A DNA stretch of 20,352 bases, from the IMG/VR virus record IMGVR_UViG_2534681705_000008. One strand, given 5' to 3'. Shown here in pieces: positions 5,807 through 15,700 of this stretch; positions within the stretch are counted from its first letter, which is position 1, and the number at the start of each line of letters is the position of its first letter. The DNA is from a virus. Lineage: Duplodnaviria > Heunggongvirae > Uroviricota > Caudoviricetes. The notes beneath the pieces are model-generated. The model was not told where the DNA came from. It searched no databases and saw only the letters and a list, made by a program, of their open reading frames with translations. Made by a program: the position numbers and the translations under genes.

Positions 5807-6180
5807 GCTGCTACCTGTTTCGCCATCTGATTACGGGTGATCCAGAAGGCAATAACGGTCAGTAGATAAAAGACCAGGGTAATAGCCCACCCCGTCCAGG
5901 CGAGACTTACAACAATCAGCAATCGCATCACCCAACTGATAAATACGTTTTCTTTTCGGGTAATTGTCTTCAGTAAAGATGCCCTTAACTCCTGCCAGAG
6001 CGGGCCATTCTTAATTAACGCAGCCAGTGCTACCGGAATTACCGCCCATGTCAGCAAACAGGCTACCCAAACGCCGGACGCTGCCAGTACCGGAAAAATC
6101 CCCTGCGGATACACCATTGCTGCGATTAACAGCGCCATCCATAACATCAGAAACAGTCCGCTGATTAATTTCTTTTTCAT
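5803..6180 (-). CDS. lysA: LysA-like small membrane protein (putative holin/antiholin-type lysis regulator)
   Basis: ATG at 6180 (MKKKLISGLF...) lies 1 nt after the endolysin stop; several hydrophobic helices; the longer track ORF (to 6252) would overlap the endolysin by about 70 nt. Confidence 0.65.
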   Translation of the reverse strand: MKKKLISGLFLMLWMALLIAAMVYPQGIFPVLAASGVWVACLLTWAVIPVALAALIKNGPLWQELRASLLKTITRKENVFISWVMRLLIVVSLAWTGWAITLVFYLLTVIAFWITRNQMAKQVAA

Positions 6181-6181
6181 T

Positions 6182-6694
6182 TCAGTTTGCTCCCTGTAAA
6201 CACCAGGCCATCTCCCGCGCACGGCGGTTATCCAGCCCCTGATTAAACACACCTTTTACATAAACCCAGCGCGGCAACTGTCGGCACGCATCCGCCCAGC
6301 GCCGCTGATTGAGCAATTTCACCAGCGTGGAGCTGCAGGCATTGCCCGTCCCCACGTTGAAGGCAAACGACACCGTAGCGTCATACACCTTCTGTGGTGG
6401 CAGTTGCTTCACACACCTTTCCAGTACCCGCTCCACACGCAGCACGTTGGAGATCAGCCCTTCTGCTGCCTGTCGTTCCGTGATTGTTTTGCCGGGAATG
6501 ACGCCCGATGTATTACCAATGCCGTCGGTCCAGACACCCGCGCTGCACTGATACGGCTGCAGACGACAGCCTTCGTAATCAGCAATCAGTTTCAGCCCCT
6601 CCACGGAGGTGTGAAGCTGCTGAAAACCCGGCAGCGTGGCAGCAATAGCCAGCACGGCCCCGACAAGGCAGCGTTTAACGATTGATGGATTCAT
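6182..6694 (-). CDS. Endolysin, GH24 lysozyme with an N-terminal SAR-like signal-anchor
   Basis: 170 aa; hydrophobic N-terminus (CLVGAVLAIAATLPGF) followed by a lysozyme core resembling P21-type SAR endolysins; ATG at 6694 confirmed. Confidence 0.9.
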   Translation of the reverse strand: MNPSIVKRCLVGAVLAIAATLPGFQQLHTSVEGLKLIADYEGCRLQPYQCSAGVWTDGIGNTSGVIPGKTITERQAAEGLISNVLRVERVLERCVKQLPPQKVYDATVSFAFNVGTGNACSSTLVKLLNQRRWADACRQLPRWVYVKGVFNQGLDNRRAREMAWCLQGAN

Positions 6695-6890
6695 AGTCCT
6701 CCCGCGAGATCTGCCCGTCGCGCAGAAGCTGGTAGGATTTGTGTTTGTAGTACCAGTTGATAGCCAGCATCAGTACACCAATCATCAGGCCGCCCAGCGT
6801 TGAGGCATCCTTGATGGACAAATCGCCCAGCCAGGCCAGCACGACGGCGATGCAATACGTGATAAAGGCGCTGATTCGCTCAAGCGTCAT
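6675..6890 (-). CDS. Holin (small two-TM membrane protein)
   Basis: 71 aa; two hydrophobic segments and a charged C-terminus; ATG at 6890 confirmed; position immediately upstream of the endolysin. Confidence 0.7.
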   Translation of the reverse strand: MTLERISAFITYCIAVVLAWLGDLSIKDASTLGGLMIGVLMLAINWYYKHKSYQLLRDGQISREDYESINR

Positions 6891-6893
6891 AAT

Positions 6894-7097
6894 TCAGTCC
6901 CATAGCTGGACGGTCTGCACGGTGGTGGTGGTCGGAATGTCCGGCAGCTCCACCTGCAGCCCGTGAGGTAAAAAGGGGCCGTATTCGGCAAGCCCCGGAT
7001 TTGCCTTCAGTACCTGCTCCGTGACCCCCTGCGTGCGCCCGTAATGACGCCAGCAAAGCGCGTCCACCGTGTCATACTGATGCGCACGCACTTTCAT
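6894..7097 (-). CDS. X: Tail protein X (gpX)
   Basis: 67 aa, same length and position as P2 gpX; ATG at 7097 confirmed. Confidence 0.8.
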   Translation of the reverse strand: MKVRAHQYDTVDALCWRHYGRTQGVTEQVLKANPGLAEYGPFLPHGLQVELPDIPTTTTVQTVQLWD

Positions 7098-10361: not shown

Positions 10362-12128
10362 ATGAACACCACACTGACACCCGCAGATCTCGATCCCCGT
10401 CGGCAGGCCATGCTGCTGTACTTTCAGGGATACCGCGTAGCCCGCATTGCTGAAATGCTGGGCGAGAAAGTTGCAACCGTTCACAGCTGGAAGAAACGCG
10501 ACAAGTGGGGTGACTATGGGCCGCTGGATCAGATGCAGCTCACCACCGCCGCACGTTACTGCCAGCTCATTATGAAGGAGCACAAAGAAGGGAAAGATTT
10601 CAAAGAAATTGACCTGCTGGCGCGCCAGTCGGAGCGCCACGCGCGGATCGGCAAGTTTAACAATGGCGGCAACGAAGCCGACTTAAACCCTAACGTCGCC
10701 AACCGCAACAAAGGCCCGCGCCGTCAGCCGGAAAAGAATGTTTTCACCGATGAACAGATAGAGAAACTGGAAGAAATCTTCCATTCCTCCATGTTCAACT
10801 ACCAGCGCCACTGGTGGGAAGCCGGAAAAACCAACCGCATCCGCAACCTGCTGAAGTCACGCCAGATCGGCGCGACCTTTTACTTTGCCCGTGAAGCCCT
10901 GATTGACGCCCTGCTTACCGGACGTAACCAGATTTTCCTTTCTGCCAGTAAGGCACAGGCTCACGTCTTTAAGCAGTACATCATCGACTTCGCCAAAGAA
11001 GTCGAGGTGGAGCTGAAAGGCGATCCGATGGTGCTTCCTAACGGGGCCACGCTTTACTTCCTCGGCACCAATGCCCGCACGGCGCAGAGTTACCACGGCA
11101 ACCTGTATCTGGATGAATATTTCTGGATACCGAAATTCCAGGAGTTGCGCAAAGTGGCTTCCGGTATGGCTATTCACAAGAAATGGCGACAAACCTATTT
11201 TTCCACGCCATCCAGCCTGACCCACAGTGCTTATCCGTTCTGGTCCGGTGCGCTGTTCAACCGTGGACGCAACAAAGCTGACAAGGTGGACATCGACCTG
11301 TCCCACAGCAATCTGGCCCCCGGCCTACTGTGCGCAGACGGGCAATACCGCCAGATAGTCACCGTGGAAGATGCGGTGCGCGGCGGCTGTAACCTGTTCG
11401 ACCTCGACCAGCTGCGCATGGAGTACAGCCCGGACGAATACCAGAACCTGCTGATGTGCGAGTTCGTGGACGATCTCGCGTCCGTGTTCCCGCTCAGCGA
11501 ACTGCAGGCGTGCATGGTGGACAGCTGGGAAGTCTGGACCGACTTTCATGCACTGGCCCTGCGCCCGTTTGGCTGGCGCGAAGTGTGGATCGGTTATGAC
11601 CCGGCAAAAGGTACGCAGAACGGCGACAGTGCCGGATGCGTGGTGGTGGCTCCGCCAGCCGTGCCGGGTGGTAAGTTCCGCATTCTTGAGCGTCACCAGT
11701 GGCGCGGGATGGACTTCCGCGCCCAGGCTGACGCCATCAAAAAACTGACCGAACAGTATAACGTGACCTATATCGGTATCGACTCGACCGGCGTCGGTCA
11801 CGGGGTTTACGAGAACGTGAAAGCGTTTTTTCCTGCCGTCAGGGAGTTTGTCTATAACCCCAACGTTAAAAACGCCCTGGTACTCAAGGCCTACGACATT
11901 ATCAGCCACCGCCGTCTGGAGTTTGACGCCGGGCACACCGACATTGCGCAGTCATTTATGGCAATCCGTCGCGCTACCACTGCCAGTGGCAACCGCCCGA
12001 CCTATGAAGCCAGCCGCAGCGAAGAAGCCAGCCATGCCGATCTGGCCTGGGCAACAATGCACGCACTGTTTAACGAACCGCTGCAGGGCGAGTCCGCCAA
12101 TACCAGCAATATTGTGGAGATTTTTTGA
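10362..12128 (+). CDS. P: Terminase ATPase (large) subunit gpP
   Basis: 588 aa; P2 gpP-like; ATG at 10362; stop overlaps the Q start (TGATG). Confidence 0.95.
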   Translation: MNTTLTPADLDPRRQAMLLYFQGYRVARIAEMLGEKVATVHSWKKRDKWGDYGPLDQMQLTTAARYCQLIMKEHKEGKDFKEIDLLARQSERHARIGKFNNGGNEADLNPNVANRNKGPRRQPEKNVFTDEQIEKLEEIFHSSMFNYQRHWWEAGKTNRIRNLLKSRQIGATFYFAREALIDALLTGRNQIFLSASKAQAHVFKQYIIDFAKEVEVELKGDPMVLPNGATLYFLGTNARTAQSYHGNLYLDEYFWIPKFQELRKVASGMAIHKKWRQTYFSTPSSLTHSAYPFWSGALFNRGRNKADKVDIDLSHSNLAPGLLCADGQYRQIVTVEDAVRGGCNLFDLDQLRMEYSPDEYQNLLMCEFVDDLASVFPLSELQACMVDSWEVWTDFHALALRPFGWREVWIGYDPAKGTQNGDSAGCVVVAPPAVPGGKFRILERHQWRGMDFRAQADAIKKLTEQYNVTYIGIDSTGVGHGVYENVKAFFPAVREFVYNPNVKNALVLKAYDIISHRRLEFDAGHTDIAQSFMAIRRATTASGNRPTYEASRSEEASHADLAWATMHALFNEPLQGESANTSNIVEIF

Positions 12129-13165
12129 TGGGAAAGAGTAAGAAGAACCGCGCTGCGTCGACGAAACAGATCCAGCATAAAAGCCAGACTTCAGCCGAAG
12201 CATTCAGCTTCGGTGATCCCGTTCCTGTTCTGGACCGCCGCGAACTGCTGGACTATGTGGAATGCGTACAGATGGATCGTTGGTACGAGCCGCCTGTGAG
12301 TTTCGACGGACTGGCGCGAACCTTCCGCGCCGCCGTGCATCACAGCTCACCGATTGCAGTGAAGTGCAACATTCTGACCAGCACCTACATCCCTCACCCG
12401 CTGCTCAGCCAGCAGGCTTTTTCGCGTTTTGTACAGGACTATCTGGTTTTTGGTAACGCCTACCTGGAGAAACGCACGAACCGCTTCGGTGAAGTTATCG
12501 CCCTTGAGCCTGCACTGGCAAAATACACCCGACGCGGGTTAGACCTTGATACCTACTGGTTTGTGCAATACGGCATGACTACACAGCCGTATCAGTTCAC
12601 GAAAGGCAACATTTTTCATCTGATGGAACCGGACATCAACCAGGAGATCTACGGCCTGCCTGGTTATCTTTCTGCCATTCCGTCAGCCCTGCTCAACGAG
12701 TCCGCCACGCTGTTCCGTCGAAAGTATTACATTAACGGCAGTCATGCAGGCTTCATCATGTACATGACCGACGCCGCGCAGAACCAGGAGGATGTAAACA
12801 ACCTCCGTAACGCGATGAAAAGCGCCAAAGGACCAGGTAACTTCCGCAATCTGTTTATGTACTCGCCTAACGGCAAAAAGGACGGACTTCAGATCATCCC
12901 ATTGTCAGAAGTCGCGGCGAAGGATGAGTTTCTGAATATCAAAAATGTCAGCCGCGATGACATGATGGCAGCGCACCGTGTGCCACCGCAAATGATGGGG
13001 ATTATGCCGAATAATGTTGGGGGGTTTGGGGATGTGGAGAAGGCAAGCCGTGTATTCGTCCGAAATGAGCTAATGCCACTACAAAAGCGATTACAGGAGA
13101 TGAATGATTGGCTTGGCAAGGAGGCGATACGGTTTGATACCTACTCGCTAGATATAGCCCCATAA
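12128..13165 (+). CDS. Q: Portal vertex protein gpQ
   Basis: The track start at 12125 is TTG; the ATG at 12128 gives 345 aa (MGKSKKNRA...); P2 gpQ-like. Confidence 0.95.
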   Translation: MGKSKKNRAASTKQIQHKSQTSAEAFSFGDPVPVLDRRELLDYVECVQMDRWYEPPVSFDGLARTFRAAVHHSSPIAVKCNILTSTYIPHPLLSQQAFSRFVQDYLVFGNAYLEKRTNRFGEVIALEPALAKYTRRGLDLDTYWFVQYGMTTQPYQFTKGNIFHLMEPDINQEIYGLPGYLSAIPSALLNESATLFRRKYYINGSHAGFIMYMTDAAQNQEDVNNLRNAMKSAKGPGNFRNLFMYSPNGKKDGLQIIPLSEVAAKDEFLNIKNVSRDDMMAAHRVPPQMMGIMPNNVGGFGDVEKASRVFVRNELMPLQKRLQEMNDWLGKEAIRFDTYSLDIAP

Positions 13166-13169
13166 TAAG

Positions 13170-13193
13170 AAAAGCCACCGTTTGGTGGCTTTT
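13170..13193. terminator. Bidirectional intrinsic terminator hairpin between convergent Q and the HipS-HIRAN gene
   Basis: Perfect 10-bp inverted repeat AAAAGCCACC-gttt-GGTGGCTTTT, with A-run and T-run flanks usable on either strand. Confidence 0.6.
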
Positions 13194-13199
13194 CTTCAT

Positions 13200-13940
13200 T
13201 TACTCAATAGGTTCAAACTCATCTTGAGGAATCAGCGTCGATTGACAGGCTTGGCTTAGTACCCCTGATAATTTACATAATAACCGATAGTTATGAGGAG
13301 CATCATCGCTAATCTTTTCGACCGTTAAAGTGATTGATTTTGGATCATCCAATAACATCTTCTTGATGTCATTACTTAAATACCTAGGGCAGTAACCAAC
13401 GATTTCAGCTGGTTTATCTGCACGAACGACAACAGCATCCCCATCGTATTCATTTTGAAGATCCAAGCAAAGACGCAAAATTTGCCCCGGTTTCAATTCA
13501 GATACACGAGCATTAGCTAAGCTATTCAAGTAACCAAGTCCATGTAAGAAGAAAAAATGCTCAAAGTTACCATCAGAATCAAAATCAATTTTTTTGAAAA
13601 TCTGCAGCTGATCAGTGCTTCGTAAGCCTCCCGAGCGAGCAAGAATATCGATAGGATTTACCTTATCTTCTTCAAATCCAAGCCATTTAATGAAACTCGG
13701 ATACTCTGGACGTCTCGGTGATAAAAGGCGATTTTTAAAAAGAGGAAACAATTCTTCCGATACATAAGTTTCACGAACATCACTCATGCCGCTAAACTTT
13801 GTAAATTTAGAAGATTTAAGAGCACCTTTGGTATACCTGAAAACATACCCCGATTTGCGCTCTTGCAAGTTACCAACAACATGCCAGTCTCTGGTATCTG
13901 GTGCCTGCCATGCGACGTAAACGGAGTTTGTATTAGTCAT
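13200..13940 (-). CDS. HipS-like (HipA N-subdomain-like) domain fused to a C-terminal HIRAN domain; putative antitoxin/sensor partner of the adjacent kinase
   Basis: 246 aa. N-terminal ~115 aa resemble the HipA N-terminal/HipS fold (VGNLQERKSGYVFRY..., ELFPLFKNRLLSP..., IDILARSGG). C-terminal ~90 aa carry HIRAN-like motifs (LHGLGYLNS; LQNEYDGDAVVV resembling NPYDxNAIxV; IVGYCPRYLSNDIKKML). ATG at 13940 overlaps the kinase stop (ATGA). Confidence 0.6.
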   Translation of the reverse strand: MTNTNSVYVAWQAPDTRDWHVVGNLQERKSGYVFRYTKGALKSSKFTKFSGMSDVRETYVSEELFPLFKNRLLSPRRPEYPSFIKWLGFEEDKVNPIDILARSGGLRSTDQLQIFKKIDFDSDGNFEHFFFLHGLGYLNSLANARVSELKPGQILRLCLDLQNEYDGDAVVVRADKPAEIVGYCPRYLSNDIKKMLLDDPKSITLTVEKISDDAPHNYRLLCKLSGVLSQACQSTLIPQDEFEPIE

Positions 13941-14851
13941 TCTAGTAACCTTCTGCGATTTTCCATTACCATTAACGTTGCAAATCTACGTGCACTGTCG
14001 GATATACACGATGAAGGCACTTGGTTAAACACATCTGTAATGGAATCTTCTGTTAAAACGCTCAACTTACCTAACCAATGGTCGCGAGCGGCAACTCTCC
14101 CTTCAACTGCATGTTGAAATGCTTCAACAGTCAGCAAGGGCTTTTTATCAGTTTTTGCTTTGAATAGCTCAGAGCGAGCTTTTCTTACAAAACATGGGAT
14201 TTGTCGATTTTTATCTTTAGTATTAAGCCGTTCGTTACGCTCATCATCTAACATCTCCCTTCCTAAACTAGCGGCATGATCGTATGTTGGACACAAAAAC
14301 TGCTCACCAGTTTCATTGTTAAGCATGATTGCCCAATTTTCATGGTGGCGATCTTGATTACTCACAAGTGCATCGAGCATCAAATATCCACAAAATACAT
14401 CTGCTGCATTTAGCCCGGTTAGATCATATACACTCGGAGGAGGCTTGATAGATTCCCTATCTAAACAACCCAAGACCCTTGTGACAGTGTGTTCTCTGAC
14501 CCTTACCGGCTTTTCCCCGGCTTGTAAAGGCCCAGGATAATCGAATGTCGAACTGTGAAGCACTTCATTTCCCATTACCATCCGGAAACCAGATGGAATG
14601 ATATTCTGAGTCACCACACCGAATCGACCATTGTATCGCGCCAAATCATAGCTAGCATGTGGAATGTTAAGCAAATGACATAACTCAGCAGCACACTTTT
14701 CAGACCAATGCTCGCCAGTACCTGGCCTAGAGTACTTAAACAACTGCAAATTTACAGTGTCATCGGAGAAATAGAACCAAAACTTCTCTTTGGTTCCTAA
14801 CTGTTCAAGATCGTTAGCTACGGGGCTAAGCTCTACCAATTGGTATGGCAT
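13937..14851 (-). CDS. HipT/HipA-like Ser/Thr kinase core (HipA_C superfamily), lacking the HipA N-terminal subdomain
   Basis: 304 aa. Gly-rich loop GTKEKF (res 19-24, resembling the HipA/HipT GxQxK loop), catalytic motif SNQDRHHENW (res 164-173, resembling GxxDxHxKN), and Mg-binding-type YD in CPTYDHAASLG (res 190-191). ATG at 14851 confirmed. Confidence 0.7.
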   Translation of the reverse strand: MPYQLVELSPVANDLEQLGTKEKFWFYFSDDTVNLQLFKYSRPGTGEHWSEKCAAELCHLLNIPHASYDLARYNGRFGVVTQNIIPSGFRMVMGNEVLHSSTFDYPGPLQAGEKPVRVREHTVTRVLGCLDRESIKPPPSVYDLTGLNAADVFCGYLMLDALVSNQDRHHENWAIMLNNETGEQFLCPTYDHAASLGREMLDDERNERLNTKDKNRQIPCFVRKARSELFKAKTDKKPLLTVEAFQHAVEGRVAARDHWLGKLSVLTEDSITDVFNQVPSSCISDSARRFATLMVMENRRRLLE

Positions 14852-14944
14852 CTGACATCCCTGTTTAGCGGATTATGAATAAGTTAGGTTCCATTTTATC
14901 CAAACATTGTCAAATACCCTAAGATTTATTAGATGATAGAGCGA

Positions 14945-14964
14945 TACTGTATGTATGTCCAGCA
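14945..14964. promoter_or_regulatory. LexA-box-like sequence (TACTGTATGTATGTCCAGCA; CTG-N10-CAG spacing retained) about 95 bp upstream of the kinase operon
   Basis: About 16/20 match to the E. coli SOS-box consensus TACTGTATATATATACAGTA, with CTG and CAG correctly spaced; right half-site is CCAG rather than ACAG. Confidence 0.3.
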
Positions 14965-15003
14965 ATCAAATCAATATATAACTCTTATATGGCTTAACGC
15001 GCG

Positions 15004-15022
15004 CTCGTATCCCCGCCACGCC
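15004..15022 (-). other. Candidate cos (cohesive-end) site: GGCGTGGCGGGGA... on the minus strand
   Basis: The 13-mer GGCGTGGCGGGGA matches the start of the P2/186 19-nt cohesive end as I recall it (P2 GGCGAGGCGGGGAAAGCAC); the location between the A/tum side and Q is where cos is expected. Confidence 0.5.
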
Positions 15023-15065
15023 TGCCCGCTTTATGTAGTGGTTTTCATGCACCTGCATGATCTAC

Positions 15066-15093
15066 GCAAAAGCCCGCCAGTTCTGGCGGGCCT
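15066..15093 (-). terminator. Intrinsic terminator of the tum/DinI-like operon
   Basis: GC-rich 9-bp stem GCCCGCCAG-tt-CTGGCGGGC, followed on the minus strand by TTTT. Confidence 0.55.
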
Positions 15094-15226
15094 TAGCAAA
15101 AACGATCCTCAAACGATCATGCGATCTCATGCGGCATAGACATGCACTACAGAGCTAACGCCTCGCAAGGGCTCGTTGTTCAACCTTGCTGACGCCAGAA
15201 GCAAGTTCAGACGCCAGCAACGTTTC

Positions 15227-15460
15227 TTAATGCAGCCAGCTGTCGTCTTCCCACACCTTCTGCATAATTTTCATCACTTGTTTTCTTTCTTCGTCCAGTT
15301 GCAGTCCGGTTAGTTCCACACCGTTAGAGCTACCTTTGCGAATGCGAATTACCGTTTTGGGATACAGGGGGCGCAGATTGCGGTAAAGCTCGGATTCAAG
15401 GGCGTCCAGGGTAGACTGGCTAATCTTCTGCTCTTTATCGATCATTATTTCAATGCGCAT
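15227..15460 (-). CDS. DinI-family protein (SOS-inducible; 186 Tum C-terminal-domain-like)
   Basis: 77 aa from the ATG at 15460 (MRIEIMIDKEQ...KVWEDDSWLH), similar to E. coli DinI; SD GAGGTG upstream; the track ORF is extended to 15532. Confidence 0.8.
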   Translation of the reverse strand: MRIEIMIDKEQKISQSTLDALESELYRNLRPLYPKTVIRIRKGSSNGVELTGLQLDEERKQVMKIMQKVWEDDSWLH

Positions 15461-15470
15461 AAAAGTCACC

Positions 15471-15659
15471 TCAGCTGATGACATCCATTGAGCGGTTGTA
15501 TTCGTGGGTTCTGATTTTTGCCATGAGTTCATCAGTCAATTCAGAAACCCACTGCAGAGCCAGCCCCTTCTCTTCATCACTACACTCACTAGCCGCTACA
15601 AGCTTAAGAAAAAAATCAATGCGCTGGAGCTTCAAAGACTCCAAAAAATAGTCCTGCAT
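15471..15659 (-). CDS. Small protein, first gene of the SOS operon (possible Tum-like antirepressor N-terminal module)
   Basis: 62 aa from the ATG at 15659 with GGAGG upstream; the longer track ORF (to 15761) would run through the LexA box and promoter and is unlikely. Confidence 0.45.
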   Translation of the reverse strand: MQDYFLESLKLQRIDFFLKLVAASECSDEEKGLALQWVSELTDELMAKIRTHEYNRSMDVIS

Positions 15660-15700
15660 CTTTCCTCCTATGACACCACACGCAACGCTGTATGCATAAC

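What the first reader, a model, noticed from the sequence alone, without database searches (positions are those of the whole stretch)
13937..14851. Kinase has intact catalytic motifs but a minimal architecture (HipT-like core only)
The Gly-rich loop (GTKEKF), the catalytic D/H/N motif (SNQDRHHENW, Asp167) and the Mg-binding YD (Tyr190-Asp191) are all present, arguing for an active enzyme rather than a decayed remnant. At 304 aa it is shorter than HipA (~440 aa) and HipT (~335 aa) and starts almost directly at the P-loop-like motif. The missing N-subdomain is plausibly supplied in trans by the downstream gene.
Basis: partly seen in the sequence, partly recalled or inferred. Interest (0 to 1): 0.6.

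Follow-up and report, generated by a model that had tools for sequence, protein, structure and literature searches.

The report
HipI–HipN kinase module in P2 prophage
The gene encodes an intact, very small HipA-family protein kinase paired with a downstream protein that carries the kinase's "missing" N-terminal piece fused to a DNA-end-binding HIRAN domain. This two-gene module has already been described by bioinformatics (hipIN, PADLOC candidate PDC-M03) but never tested, and here it sits as cargo in the known defence hotspot of an E. coli P2-like prophage.

Summary

The pair is strictly syntenic: 79/80 genome loci and 58/58 viral contigs. It matches PADLOC PDC-M03A/B and the hipIN organisation of Gerdes et al. 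2021. It lies in the gpA-gpQ hotspot of a P2-like prophage, and Rousset et al. 2022 already catalogued these exact proteins there.

I found no experimental test of this module. Most likely it is a kinase toxin with a HipS-HIRAN antitoxin/sensor acting in abortive-infection defence; that mechanism is inferred. Verdict: real, intact, already known as a kind; moderate interest.

The parts
13937..14851 (-). hipI-like gene: 304-aa core HipA-superfamily Ser/Thr kinase (putative toxin/effector)
14780..14797 (-). codons for the Gly-rich loop GTKEKF (aa 19-24)
   Evidence: Coordinates checked by translation. Invariant in 50 homologues. Lies at the turn between strands 12-18 and 21-27 of the model. Resembles HipA 153-GAQEKT-158 by eye (HipA sequence).
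14333..14362 (-). codons for the catalytic motif SNQDRHHENW (aa 164-173; Asp167)
   Evidence: N165-W173 invariant. Aligns to HipA 306-GATDGHAKNF-315 (D309) and to CtkA NFDRHNGNW.
14279..14284 (-). codons for Tyr190-Asp191 (Mg-binding Asp motif)
   Evidence: Y190-A194 invariant. Aligns to HipA Y331-D332 and to CtkA F178-D179.
13200..13940 (-). hipN-like gene: 246-aa two-domain partner (HipS-like + HIRAN), putative antitoxin/sensor; start overlaps the kinase stop (ATGA)
   Evidence: PADLOC PDC-M03B 7e-93. AF2 model pLDDT 89, pTM 0.84. Directly downstream of the kinase in 79/80 genome loci and 58/58 viral contigs.
13596..13940 (-). HipS-like domain of the partner (aa 1-115), equivalent to HipA N-subdomain 1
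13257..13562 (-). HIRAN domain of the partner (aa 127-228)
14933..14961 (-). sigma-70-like promoter candidate (TGGACA-17-TATCAT) about 80 nt upstream of the kinase ATG
   Evidence: Consensus scan, 10 of 12 matches; sequence. Consensus match only; not shown to function.
15066..15097 (-). GC-rich hairpin followed by TTTTGCG: likely terminator of the upstream dinI-like unit, separating it from the cassette
   Evidence: Inverted repeat I2, 15-nt arms, 87% complementary; sequence.
13166..15226 (.). low-GC cargo segment (42% GC against 54% for the rest of the window) occupying the P2 gpQ-gpA hotspot
   Evidence: Composition. Only 21 of 1279 E. coli genomes that match the flanks carry the whole cassette.
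12125..13165 (+). P2-type portal gene (gpQ), conserved flank of the hotspot, convergent with hipN
   Evidence: RefSeq annotation of the matching locus. Portal found next to hipN in 39/58 viral contigs.
15813..18236 (-). P2-type replication endonuclease gene (gpA), the other conserved flank (with the dinI-like gene 15227..15532 between)
   Evidence: RefSeq annotation. Pfam Phage_GPA on the homologous neighbour. DinI Pfam 1.3e-22.

Best explanation
This is a hipIN-type two-gene module (PADLOC candidate PDC-M03) carried as accessory cargo in the gpA-gpQ hotspot of an E. coli P2-like prophage.

Shown here:
- The first gene encodes an intact, minimal HipA-superfamily kinase core (HipI-like, closest in structure to CtkA).
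- The second, translationally coupled gene encodes a HipS-like domain (the counterpart of HipA N-subdomain 1) fused to a HIRAN domain.
- The pair is conserved as a unit across phyla and on many phage genomes.

Inferred:
- The kinase is a growth-arresting toxin that phosphorylates an essential host protein, by analogy with HipA (GltX) and HipT (TrpS).
- The HipS-like domain of the partner binds next to the Gly-rich loop and keeps the kinase off, as HipS does for HipT.
- The HIRAN domain couples this inhibition to DNA, most plausibly by binding free 3' ends or single-stranded DNA that appear during phage infection. The kinase is then released and the infection aborts, protecting the lysogen population and the prophage.
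For: - Module behaviour: ATGA overlap. The partner lies directly downstream in 79/80 genome loci at 35-89% kinase identity, across Gammaproteobacteria, Cyanobacteria, Deltaproteobacteria, Acidobacteria, Planctomycetes and Clostridia, and in 58/58 IMG/VR contigs.
- Toxin-like asymmetry: the kinase is broken in 4 loci and the partner in none.
- Fused kinase-HipS-HIRAN proteins exist. HipL is described in PMC8262856, and the long kinase of pFR108 from the same E. coli hotspot aligns to both proteins.
- Defence context: both PADLOC PDC-M03 models match. The cassette is low-GC, has its own promoter-like site and follows a terminator. It sits in the gpA-gpQ hotspot, where Rousset et al. validated several defence systems and listed this exact pair.
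- The pair is also carried next to the integrase of an unrelated PM2-like Vibrio prophage.
- A few immediate neighbours elsewhere are defence genes: type I RM S subunit, MkoA, Hhe, PD-T4-6.
- The HipS mechanism comes from PMC10627512.
Against: - No experiment on hipIN/PDC-M03 was found in the held literature. Toxicity, neutralisation, substrate, DNA binding and defence are all inferred.
- A related but distinct cassette from the same hotspot (exonuclease + fused HipL-like kinase, pFR108) is listed by Rousset et al. among tested systems that were not validated against eight coliphages.
- Sequence similarity to HipA, HipT and HipS is marginal: HipA_C is below the Pfam cutoff, hhalign gives E=0.035 and 0.1, and HipS is not found by sequence.
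- I could not model the complex, so the contact between the HipS-like domain and the kinase is not shown.
- In Nostocales the module sits in a conserved chromosomal context with metabolic neighbours (PfkB), not in an obvious defence island.
Confidence: 0.6

Rival explanations
1. It is a plain addiction (post-segregational killing) toxin-antitoxin module. It stabilises the prophage or the hotspot cargo and has no role against other phages. The HIRAN domain serves only for autoregulation or localisation.
For: It has the same toxin/antitoxin anatomy and is carried on mobile elements. A related hotspot cassette showed no validated defence. In Nostocales its chromosomal, non-island context looks like a resident TA module.
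Against: Cargo of the gpA-gpQ hotspot is enriched in validated defence systems. PADLOC lists the pair as a defence candidate. HIRAN domains bind DNA ends rather than operators (PMC8262856), and no operator-like repeat lies at the promoter. TA and defence roles are also not mutually exclusive.
Confidence: 0.2
2. The partner is not an inhibitor but a required subunit. Its HipS-like domain completes the kinase as N-subdomain 1 does in HipA, and its HIRAN domain recruits the holoenzyme to DNA 3' ends. There it phosphorylates DNA-bound targets such as phage replication or recombination proteins or SSB. This is direct interference rather than host shutdown.
For: The HipS-like domain is homologous to a cis domain of HipA that forms a lid on the kinase core (PMC8262856). 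Fusions of kinase, HipS-like and HIRAN domains exist in one polypeptide, which fits a working holoenzyme.
Against: In the only characterised split systems (E. coli and Legionella HipBST), free HipS is the antitoxin and blocks the Gly-rich loop. Kinase genes are the ones found broken while partners stay intact, as expected if the kinase alone is harmful. The closest solved relative, CtkA, is an active kinase (described as a Ser/Thr kinase in PMC5536186), and the solved chain is CtkA alone.
Confidence: 0.15
3. It is a decaying or inactive remnant of a HipA-like gene, or a secreted host-directed effector like CtkA, with no toxin-antitoxin or defence function.
For: It scores below the Pfam HipA_C threshold and has no NCBIfam match. 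The closest solved structure is the H. pylori effector CtkA.
Against: The ORF is full length with invariant catalytic residues across hundreds of relatives (955 proteins at E<=1e-5). The model is confident. It is strictly coupled to a conserved partner. CtkA lies on the tfs3 ICE with a type IV secretion system, and nothing comparable is in this prophage.
Confidence: 0.03

Closest known systems
hipIN modules: HipI kinase + HipN (Gerdes, Baerentsen & Brodersen 2021, mBio; PMC8262856)
   Same: A small core kinase in the 279-321 aa range with the Gly-rich loop close to the N-terminus. The kinase gene comes first, and the downstream gene encodes a HipS-like domain plus a C-terminal HIRAN domain. 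A Thr sits in the Gly-rich loop. Relatives are mainly Proteobacteria and Cyanobacteria, as in their fourth HipI subclade.
   Different: Nothing architectural differs. Their data set held only 14 hipIN modules and no experiments. Placement of this protein in their tree was not tested. They did not discuss the prophage hotspot location.
PADLOC candidate defence system PDC-M03 (PADLOC-DB v2.0.0)
   Same: Both genes match the A and B models over their full length (2e-122 and 7e-93) and are adjacent. Other authors describe PDC-M03 as HipA plus HIRAN proteins.
   Different: It is only a candidate. I found no validation.
HipBST of E. coli O127:H6 and Legionella pneumophila
   Different: - There is no HipB/HTH gene.
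- Gene order is reversed, with the kinase first.
- The HipS-like domain is fused to HIRAN.
- The kinase lacks HipT's residues 1-41 mini-domain and the Ser-x-Ser autophosphorylation motif (E-Q-L-G-T here).
- Sequence similarity is undetectable by HMMER.
CtkA (JHP0940) of Helicobacter pylori
   Different: It is only about 15% identical. CtkA is encoded on the tfs3 ICE and studied as a host-directed pro-inflammatory kinase. No HipS-HIRAN partner is known to me for it.
HipA/HipBA of E. coli K-12
   Different: HipA is 440 aa with N-subdomain 1 in cis, a HipB HTH antitoxin encoded upstream and Ser150 autophosphorylation. None of these is present here.
'Exonuclease + HipA' (pFR108) and Vibrio 'HIRAN-kinase' in Rousset et al. 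2022 supplements; HipL fused kinases
   Same: They are cargo of the same or analogous prophage hotspots and combine kinase, HipS-like and HIRAN parts.
   Different: In pFR108 the parts are fused in one long protein and accompanied by a DEDD-type exonuclease. It is only 37% identical over the 51-residue catalytic stretch. It is listed among tested, non-validated systems.

Membership tests
HipA-superfamily kinase (Pfam HipA_C, PF07804) | Match to the HipA_C profile above Pfam's gathering score | tested here: not met
   20.7 bits against a cutoff of 30.5, covering only residues 154-225. Many close homologues do carry a precomputed PF07804 hit.
HipA-superfamily kinase (Pfam HipA_C, PF07804) | HipA/CtkA-type kinase fold | tested here: met
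HipA-superfamily kinase (Pfam HipA_C, PF07804) | Catalytic D-x-H-x-x-N motif and downstream Mg-binding Asp at the HipA D309/D332 positions | tested here: met
   D167/H169/N172 and D191 align to HipA D309/H311/N314 and D332 and to the CtkA motifs. All are invariant.
HipA-superfamily kinase (Pfam HipA_C, PF07804) | Gly-rich ATP-binding loop | tested here: inconclusive
   G19-T-K-E-K-F is invariant and sits on the first beta-hairpin. It resembles HipA GAQEKT by eye. No statistically supported alignment covers this region.
HipA-superfamily kinase (Pfam HipA_C, PF07804) | Ser/Thr kinase activity and autophosphorylation | not testable with these tools
   Requires biochemistry.
hipIN (HipI + HipN; Gerdes et al. 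2021) | Short core kinase (279-321 aa) without N-subdomain 1, with the Gly-rich loop near the N-terminus | tested here: met
   304 aa with the loop at residues 19-24. Criteria are from PMC8262856.
hipIN (HipI + HipN; Gerdes et al. 2021) | [quoted passage not shown] | tested here: met
hipIN (HipI + HipN; Gerdes et al. 2021) | Phylogenetic placement in main clade XI, HipI subclade | not tested
Only the taxon spread (Proteobacteria + Cyanobacteria) agrees.
hipIN (HipI + HipN; Gerdes et al. 2021) | Kinase toxic, HipN neutralising | not testable with these tools
   The authors only hypothesised this. The weak hint here is 4 broken kinases against 0 broken partners in 79 loci.
PADLOC PDC-M03 | Adjacent genes matching the PDC-M03A and PDC-M03B models | tested here: met
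   2.1e-122 (residues 2-304) and 6.8e-93 (residues 1-244).
HipBST (HipT kinase) | Tricistronic hipB-hipS-hipT with an HTH HipB and a free ~100-aa HipS upstream of the kinase | tested here: not met
   There is no HTH ORF upstream. The partner is downstream and fused to HIRAN.
HipBST (HipT kinase) | HipT N-terminal mini-domain (residues 1-41) and Ser-psi-Ser motif at the Gly-rich loop | tested here: not met
   Only 18 residues precede the loop, and the sequence is E-Q-L-G-T-K. Criteria are from PMC10627512.
HipBA (HipA) | N-subdomain 1 in cis and an upstream HipB antitoxin | tested here: not met
   304 aa against 440 aa. The alignment to HipA covers only 295-335. There is no HipB.
HIRAN domain (PF08797) | Profile match above threshold and HIRAN fold | tested here: met
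HIRAN domain (PF08797) | Binding of DNA 3' ends | not testable with these tools
   The N-x-Y-D motif (N163, Y165, D166) matches, from my memory of HLTF, its 3'-end pocket (N90/N91, Y93, D94). N163 and D166 are invariant.
P2 gpA-gpQ hotspot cargo (Rousset et al. 2022) | Variable genes between the conserved portal gpQ and replication gpA of a P2-like prophage | tested here: met
   Flanks are annotated. The cassette is in 21 of 1279 genomes sharing the flanks. The same position holds in 39 viral contigs. The exact accessions appear in their Table S5A.

The most novel reading that the evidence does not exclude
The HIRAN domain acts as an infection sensor. It recognises free DNA 3' ends or single-stranded DNA produced by an incoming or replicating phage, and this pulls the fused HipS-like lid off the kinase. 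The module would then be a DNA-end-triggered kinase switch. That would be a sensing principle not yet demonstrated for any toxin-antitoxin kinase or HIRAN protein in bacteria. In some relatives it may be tuned by an associated DEDD exonuclease (pFR108; actinobacterial diDNase clusters).
Probability: 0.3. Interest if true: 0.65.

Novelty: already known. Interest (0 to 1): 0.35.

Why it matters
If the inferred mechanism holds, this cassette links a eukaryote-like DNA-end reader (HIRAN) to a HipA-type kinase toxin, which would give a concrete model for how a split Hip kinase is switched on during infection. It is a compact, natively E. coli system with an obvious assay, sitting in a hotspot where other cargo has been validated. 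It is therefore a practical entry point for testing the many untested Hip kinase families. As a discovery it adds little: the architecture, the family name, the candidate-defence label and even these exact protein accessions in this hotspot are already in the literature and databases.

Tried and rejected
- Single-sequence and profile searches of the kinase against PDB sequences found only CtkA, not HipA or HipT.
- hhalign and hmmsearch against K-12 HipA aligned only the catalytic stretch, with weak statistics.
- The partner profile against PDB sequences found only a weak HIRAN hit. Its HipS-like domain alone gave spurious summed hits to designed Kelch-repeat proteins. HipS similarity therefore rests on structure.
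- NCBIfam gave nothing usable.
- The search for kinase-partner fusions with the partner profile found 1659 representatives at E<=1e-3, and none of the best 150 was fused to a kinase. The longer hits are C-terminal extensions or an apparent secretin chimera.
- I looked for a conserved third gene or a defence-island signal among 143 immediate neighbours. No universal third gene appeared, only lineage-specific synteny in Nostocales (PfkB and others) and about nine defence-gene neighbours.
- The promoter region has no operator-like repeats, only two hairpins after dinI.
- The GenBank phage collection holds no close DNA match. It holds distant protein matches in Vibrio PM2-like elements and one C. 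difficile phage.
- Literature searches for experimental work on HipI, HipN, HipL, hipIN, PDC-M03 or HIRAN plus defence found none. Some 'HIRAN' hits were the surname Hirano.
- DefensePredictor's HipAD (DS-6) is a different HipA system with a DUF3037/DUF1829 partner.
- Brenes & Laub 2025 is not held.
Full report
**1. The observation**

The minus-strand ORF 13937..14851 is the maximal open frame and encodes 304 residues. GTKEKF occupies residues 19-24. SNQDRHHENW occupies 164-173 with Asp167. Tyr190-Asp191 are present. Near-identical E. coli chromosomes annotate the same CDS as WP_001146828.1, 'HipA domain-containing protein'. Homologues from other genera begin at the same position, so the short N-terminus is genuine.

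In an alignment of 50 homologues that are 57-90% identical to the window protein, E16, L18, G19-F26, K39, N165-W173 and Y190-A194 are invariant.

**2. What the kinase is**

By sequence it is a remote member of the HipA superfamily.
- Pfam HipA_C scores 20.7 bits, below the 30.5 cutoff, over residues 154-225 only.
- NCBIfam gives nothing.
- The only PDB sequence reached by a family profile is H. pylori CtkA (E 2.5e-4).

In that alignment D167 and D191 fall on the CtkA DRHNGNW and IFD motifs. By my counting from the printed coordinates these are CtkA residues 155 and 179.

Against E. coli K-12 HipA (taken from NC_000913) both hhalign and hmmsearch align only the catalytic stretch. They do so in the expected register: D167=D309, H169=H311, N172=N314, D191=D332. 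Asp309 and Asp332 are the catalytic and Mg-binding aspartates of HipA (established knowledge). The statistics are weak (E 0.035).

The AlphaFold2 model (pLDDT 85, pTM 0.86) settles the fold.
- Foldseek gives the same order.

The GTKEKF motif sits at the turn of the first beta-hairpin (strands 12-18 and 21-27). Only 18 residues precede it. HipA N-subdomain 1 is therefore absent. So is the 41-residue N-terminal mini-domain described for HipT (PMC10627512).

There is no Ser at the position of HipA Ser150 or of the HipT Ser57/Ser59 motif. The loop contains an invariant Thr20 instead.

A segment at 100-118 is modelled with low confidence although Y105 and P106 within it, and H121 and T122 just after it, are invariant. 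I have no explanation for that.

**3. The downstream gene**

ORF 13200..13940 starts inside the kinase stop codon (ATGA) and encodes 246 residues.
- Pfam finds HIRAN at 127-228 (1e-13) and a weak HipA N-terminal domain (Couple_hipA, E 0.014) at 20-72.
- hhalign places residues 20-72 on HipA 11-65.

The invariant N163-x-Y165-D166...A169 and G182 coincide with the HIRAN signature. From my memory of HLTF, that signature forms the pocket for the DNA 3' end. This last point is a recollection, not a test.

**4. The two genes are one module**

A scan of one genome per species found 147 relatives. Of the 80 loci kept (35-89% identical), 79 have the partner gene immediately downstream on the same strand, usually -7 to +30 nt away. 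The one exception ends two bases after the kinase. The taxa include Gammaproteobacteria, Cyanobacteria, Deltaproteobacteria, Acidobacteria, Planctomycetes, Clostridia and candidate phyla.

All 58 IMG/VR viral contigs with a relative also have the pair.

In four loci the kinase is interrupted by a stop or frameshift while the partner is intact. The reverse was not seen. The numbers are small and some loci are MAGs. Still, this is the asymmetry expected if the kinase alone is harmful.

The partner family is large: 1659 representatives at 50% identity with E<=1e-3.

**5. Genomic setting**

The window is an E. coli P2-like prophage. The cassette lies between the portal gene gpQ (12125..13165) on one side and the dinI-like gene and replication gene gpA (15813..18236) on the other.
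- It is 42% GC against 54% for the rest of the window.
- It follows a terminator-like hairpin (15066-15097).
- It has a promoter-like site (14961-14933).
- Of 1279 E. coli genomes that match the flanks, 21 carry the whole cassette.
- In 39 of the 58 viral contigs it sits at the same place next to P2-type portals that are 61-100% identical.

Rousset et al. 2022 defined exactly this gpA-gpQ region as a hotspot of anti-phage systems. Their Table S5A lists WP_001146828 with WP_000185756/7 as hotspot cargo.

The same pair is carried next to the integrase of PM2-like (Vinavirales) Vibrio prophages.

**6. What is already known**

Gerdes, Baerentsen and Brodersen (2021) described this organisation as hipIN. 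HipI kinases are short (279-321 aa), keep the four Hip motifs with the Gly-rich loop near the N-terminus, and are followed by HipN, a HipS-like domain plus a HIRAN domain proposed as antitoxin. HipL is the fused form. They had 14 such modules and no experiments.

PADLOC-DB lists the pair as candidate defence system PDC-M03. Both window proteins match its models over their full length (2e-122 and 7e-93). Two later papers mention HipA + HIRAN only as a predicted system.

Rousset et al. also named a Vibrio 'HIRAN-kinase'. They cloned an 'Exonuclease + HipA' cassette (pFR108) from the same E. coli hotspot. Its long kinase aligns to the window kinase over the catalytic stretch (37% of 51 residues) and to the window partner over residues 9-77, so it is a fused, HipL-like relative. 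It appears in their table of additional tested systems, not among the validated ones.

I found no experimental test of hipIN itself.

**7. Mechanism**

Shown:
- an intact kinase core;
- a partner with HipS-like and HIRAN domains;
- obligate pairing of the two genes;
- phage-borne hotspot cargo.

Inferred by analogy with HipBST, where HipS wedges a residue beside the Gly-rich loop and holds HipT inactive: the HipS-like domain keeps the kinase off.

Inferred by analogy with HipA/HipT: the free kinase phosphorylates an essential translation factor and arrests growth.

Inferred from HIRAN biology and the hotspot: DNA ends or ssDNA made during infection are the signal that releases the kinase, giving abortive infection.

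I put about 0.9 on the identification and about 0.5-0.6 on the toxin/antitoxin-defence mechanism as a whole. Rivals are a pure addiction module (0.2), a holoenzyme in which the partner activates and targets the kinase (0.15), and an inactive remnant or CtkA-like effector (0.03).

**8. Verdict**

The protein is HipI/CtkA-like rather than HipT-like, and the trans-encoded subdomain is probably an inhibitor fused to a DNA-end reader. It is not new as a kind. Architecture, name, candidate-defence status and these accessions in this hotspot are all on record.

The remaining value is experimental. It is a compact, untested E. coli system that could show how a HIRAN domain controls a Hip kinase.

Noticed in passing
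L021, L022, L047, L059 (kinase at about 6001-6900 or equivalent): In four of 79 genome loci the kinase gene is split by an in-frame stop (L021, L047) or a frameshift (L022, L059), while the downstream HipS-HIRAN gene is full length. No locus shows the reverse. Some are MAGs, so sequencing error is possible.
   Followed up: partly
L084:2910-3440 (E. coli 21AR0133); absent from window 14852-15226: Other E. coli strains with the identical kinase/HIRAN pair carry an extra 176-aa hypothetical gene (WP_000246368.1) on the opposite strand between the kinase and dinI. Viral contigs show 1-2.5 kb of further variable cargo at this spot.
   Followed up: no
Rousset et al. 2022 Table S2B (pFR108, E. coli TA255) and Table S5A ('DUF5051 + HipA_C + HIRAN'); no counterpart in the window: Some hotspot variants add a DEDD-type exonuclease (DUF5051) to the kinase/HIRAN parts. 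This echoes the actinobacterial diDNase-HipA-HIRAN clusters of PMC11706625. The window cassette has no exonuclease gene.
   Followed up: partly
L083:1303-3017 (Vibrio phage 10N.222.46.E12_PE001, PQ189286): A 37%-identical kinase plus HIRAN gene pair sits next to the integrase of a 14.6-kb PM2-like (Vinavirales) temperate element. This phage type is unrelated to P2.
   Followed up: partly
P0255 (408 aa), P0263 (340 aa), P0309 (319 aa): Some HipN-family proteins have 70-160 extra C-terminal residues after the HIRAN domain. In P0255 the tail contains a D...Q-V-K pattern reminiscent of PD-(D/E)xK nucleases. I did not analyse this.
   Followed up: no
window 14498-14551 (kinase residues 101-118) and neighbours: The kinase model has a low-confidence segment (residues 100-118, pLDDT below 50), yet Y105 and P106 within it and H121 and T122 just after it are invariant across the family. 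It may be a partner- or substrate-binding loop.
   Followed up: no
L050-L082 (Nostocales loci), e.g. L060:5178-5879 and L060:7616-8590: In Nostocales the module has a conserved chromosomal neighbourhood (a PfkB-family kinase gene convergent downstream in 15 loci, and a conserved 200-240-aa gene upstream in several). It is not in an obvious prophage or defence island.
   Followed up: partly
window 15227-15761: The mechanical ORF for the dinI-like gene is 101 aa (15227..15532), whereas RefSeq annotates a 77-aa DinI-like protein plus a separate 62-aa hypothetical protein upstream. The long ORF overlaps ORF 15471..15761.
   Followed up: no
Rousset et al. 2022 Table S5A entry NZ_NSAM01000110: One hotspot arrangement is listed as 'DarT + hypothetical + HIRAN + Macro + DinI'. 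That would put a kinase/HIRAN pair together with DarT and a macrodomain (DarG-like) protein in one hotspot.
   Followed up: no
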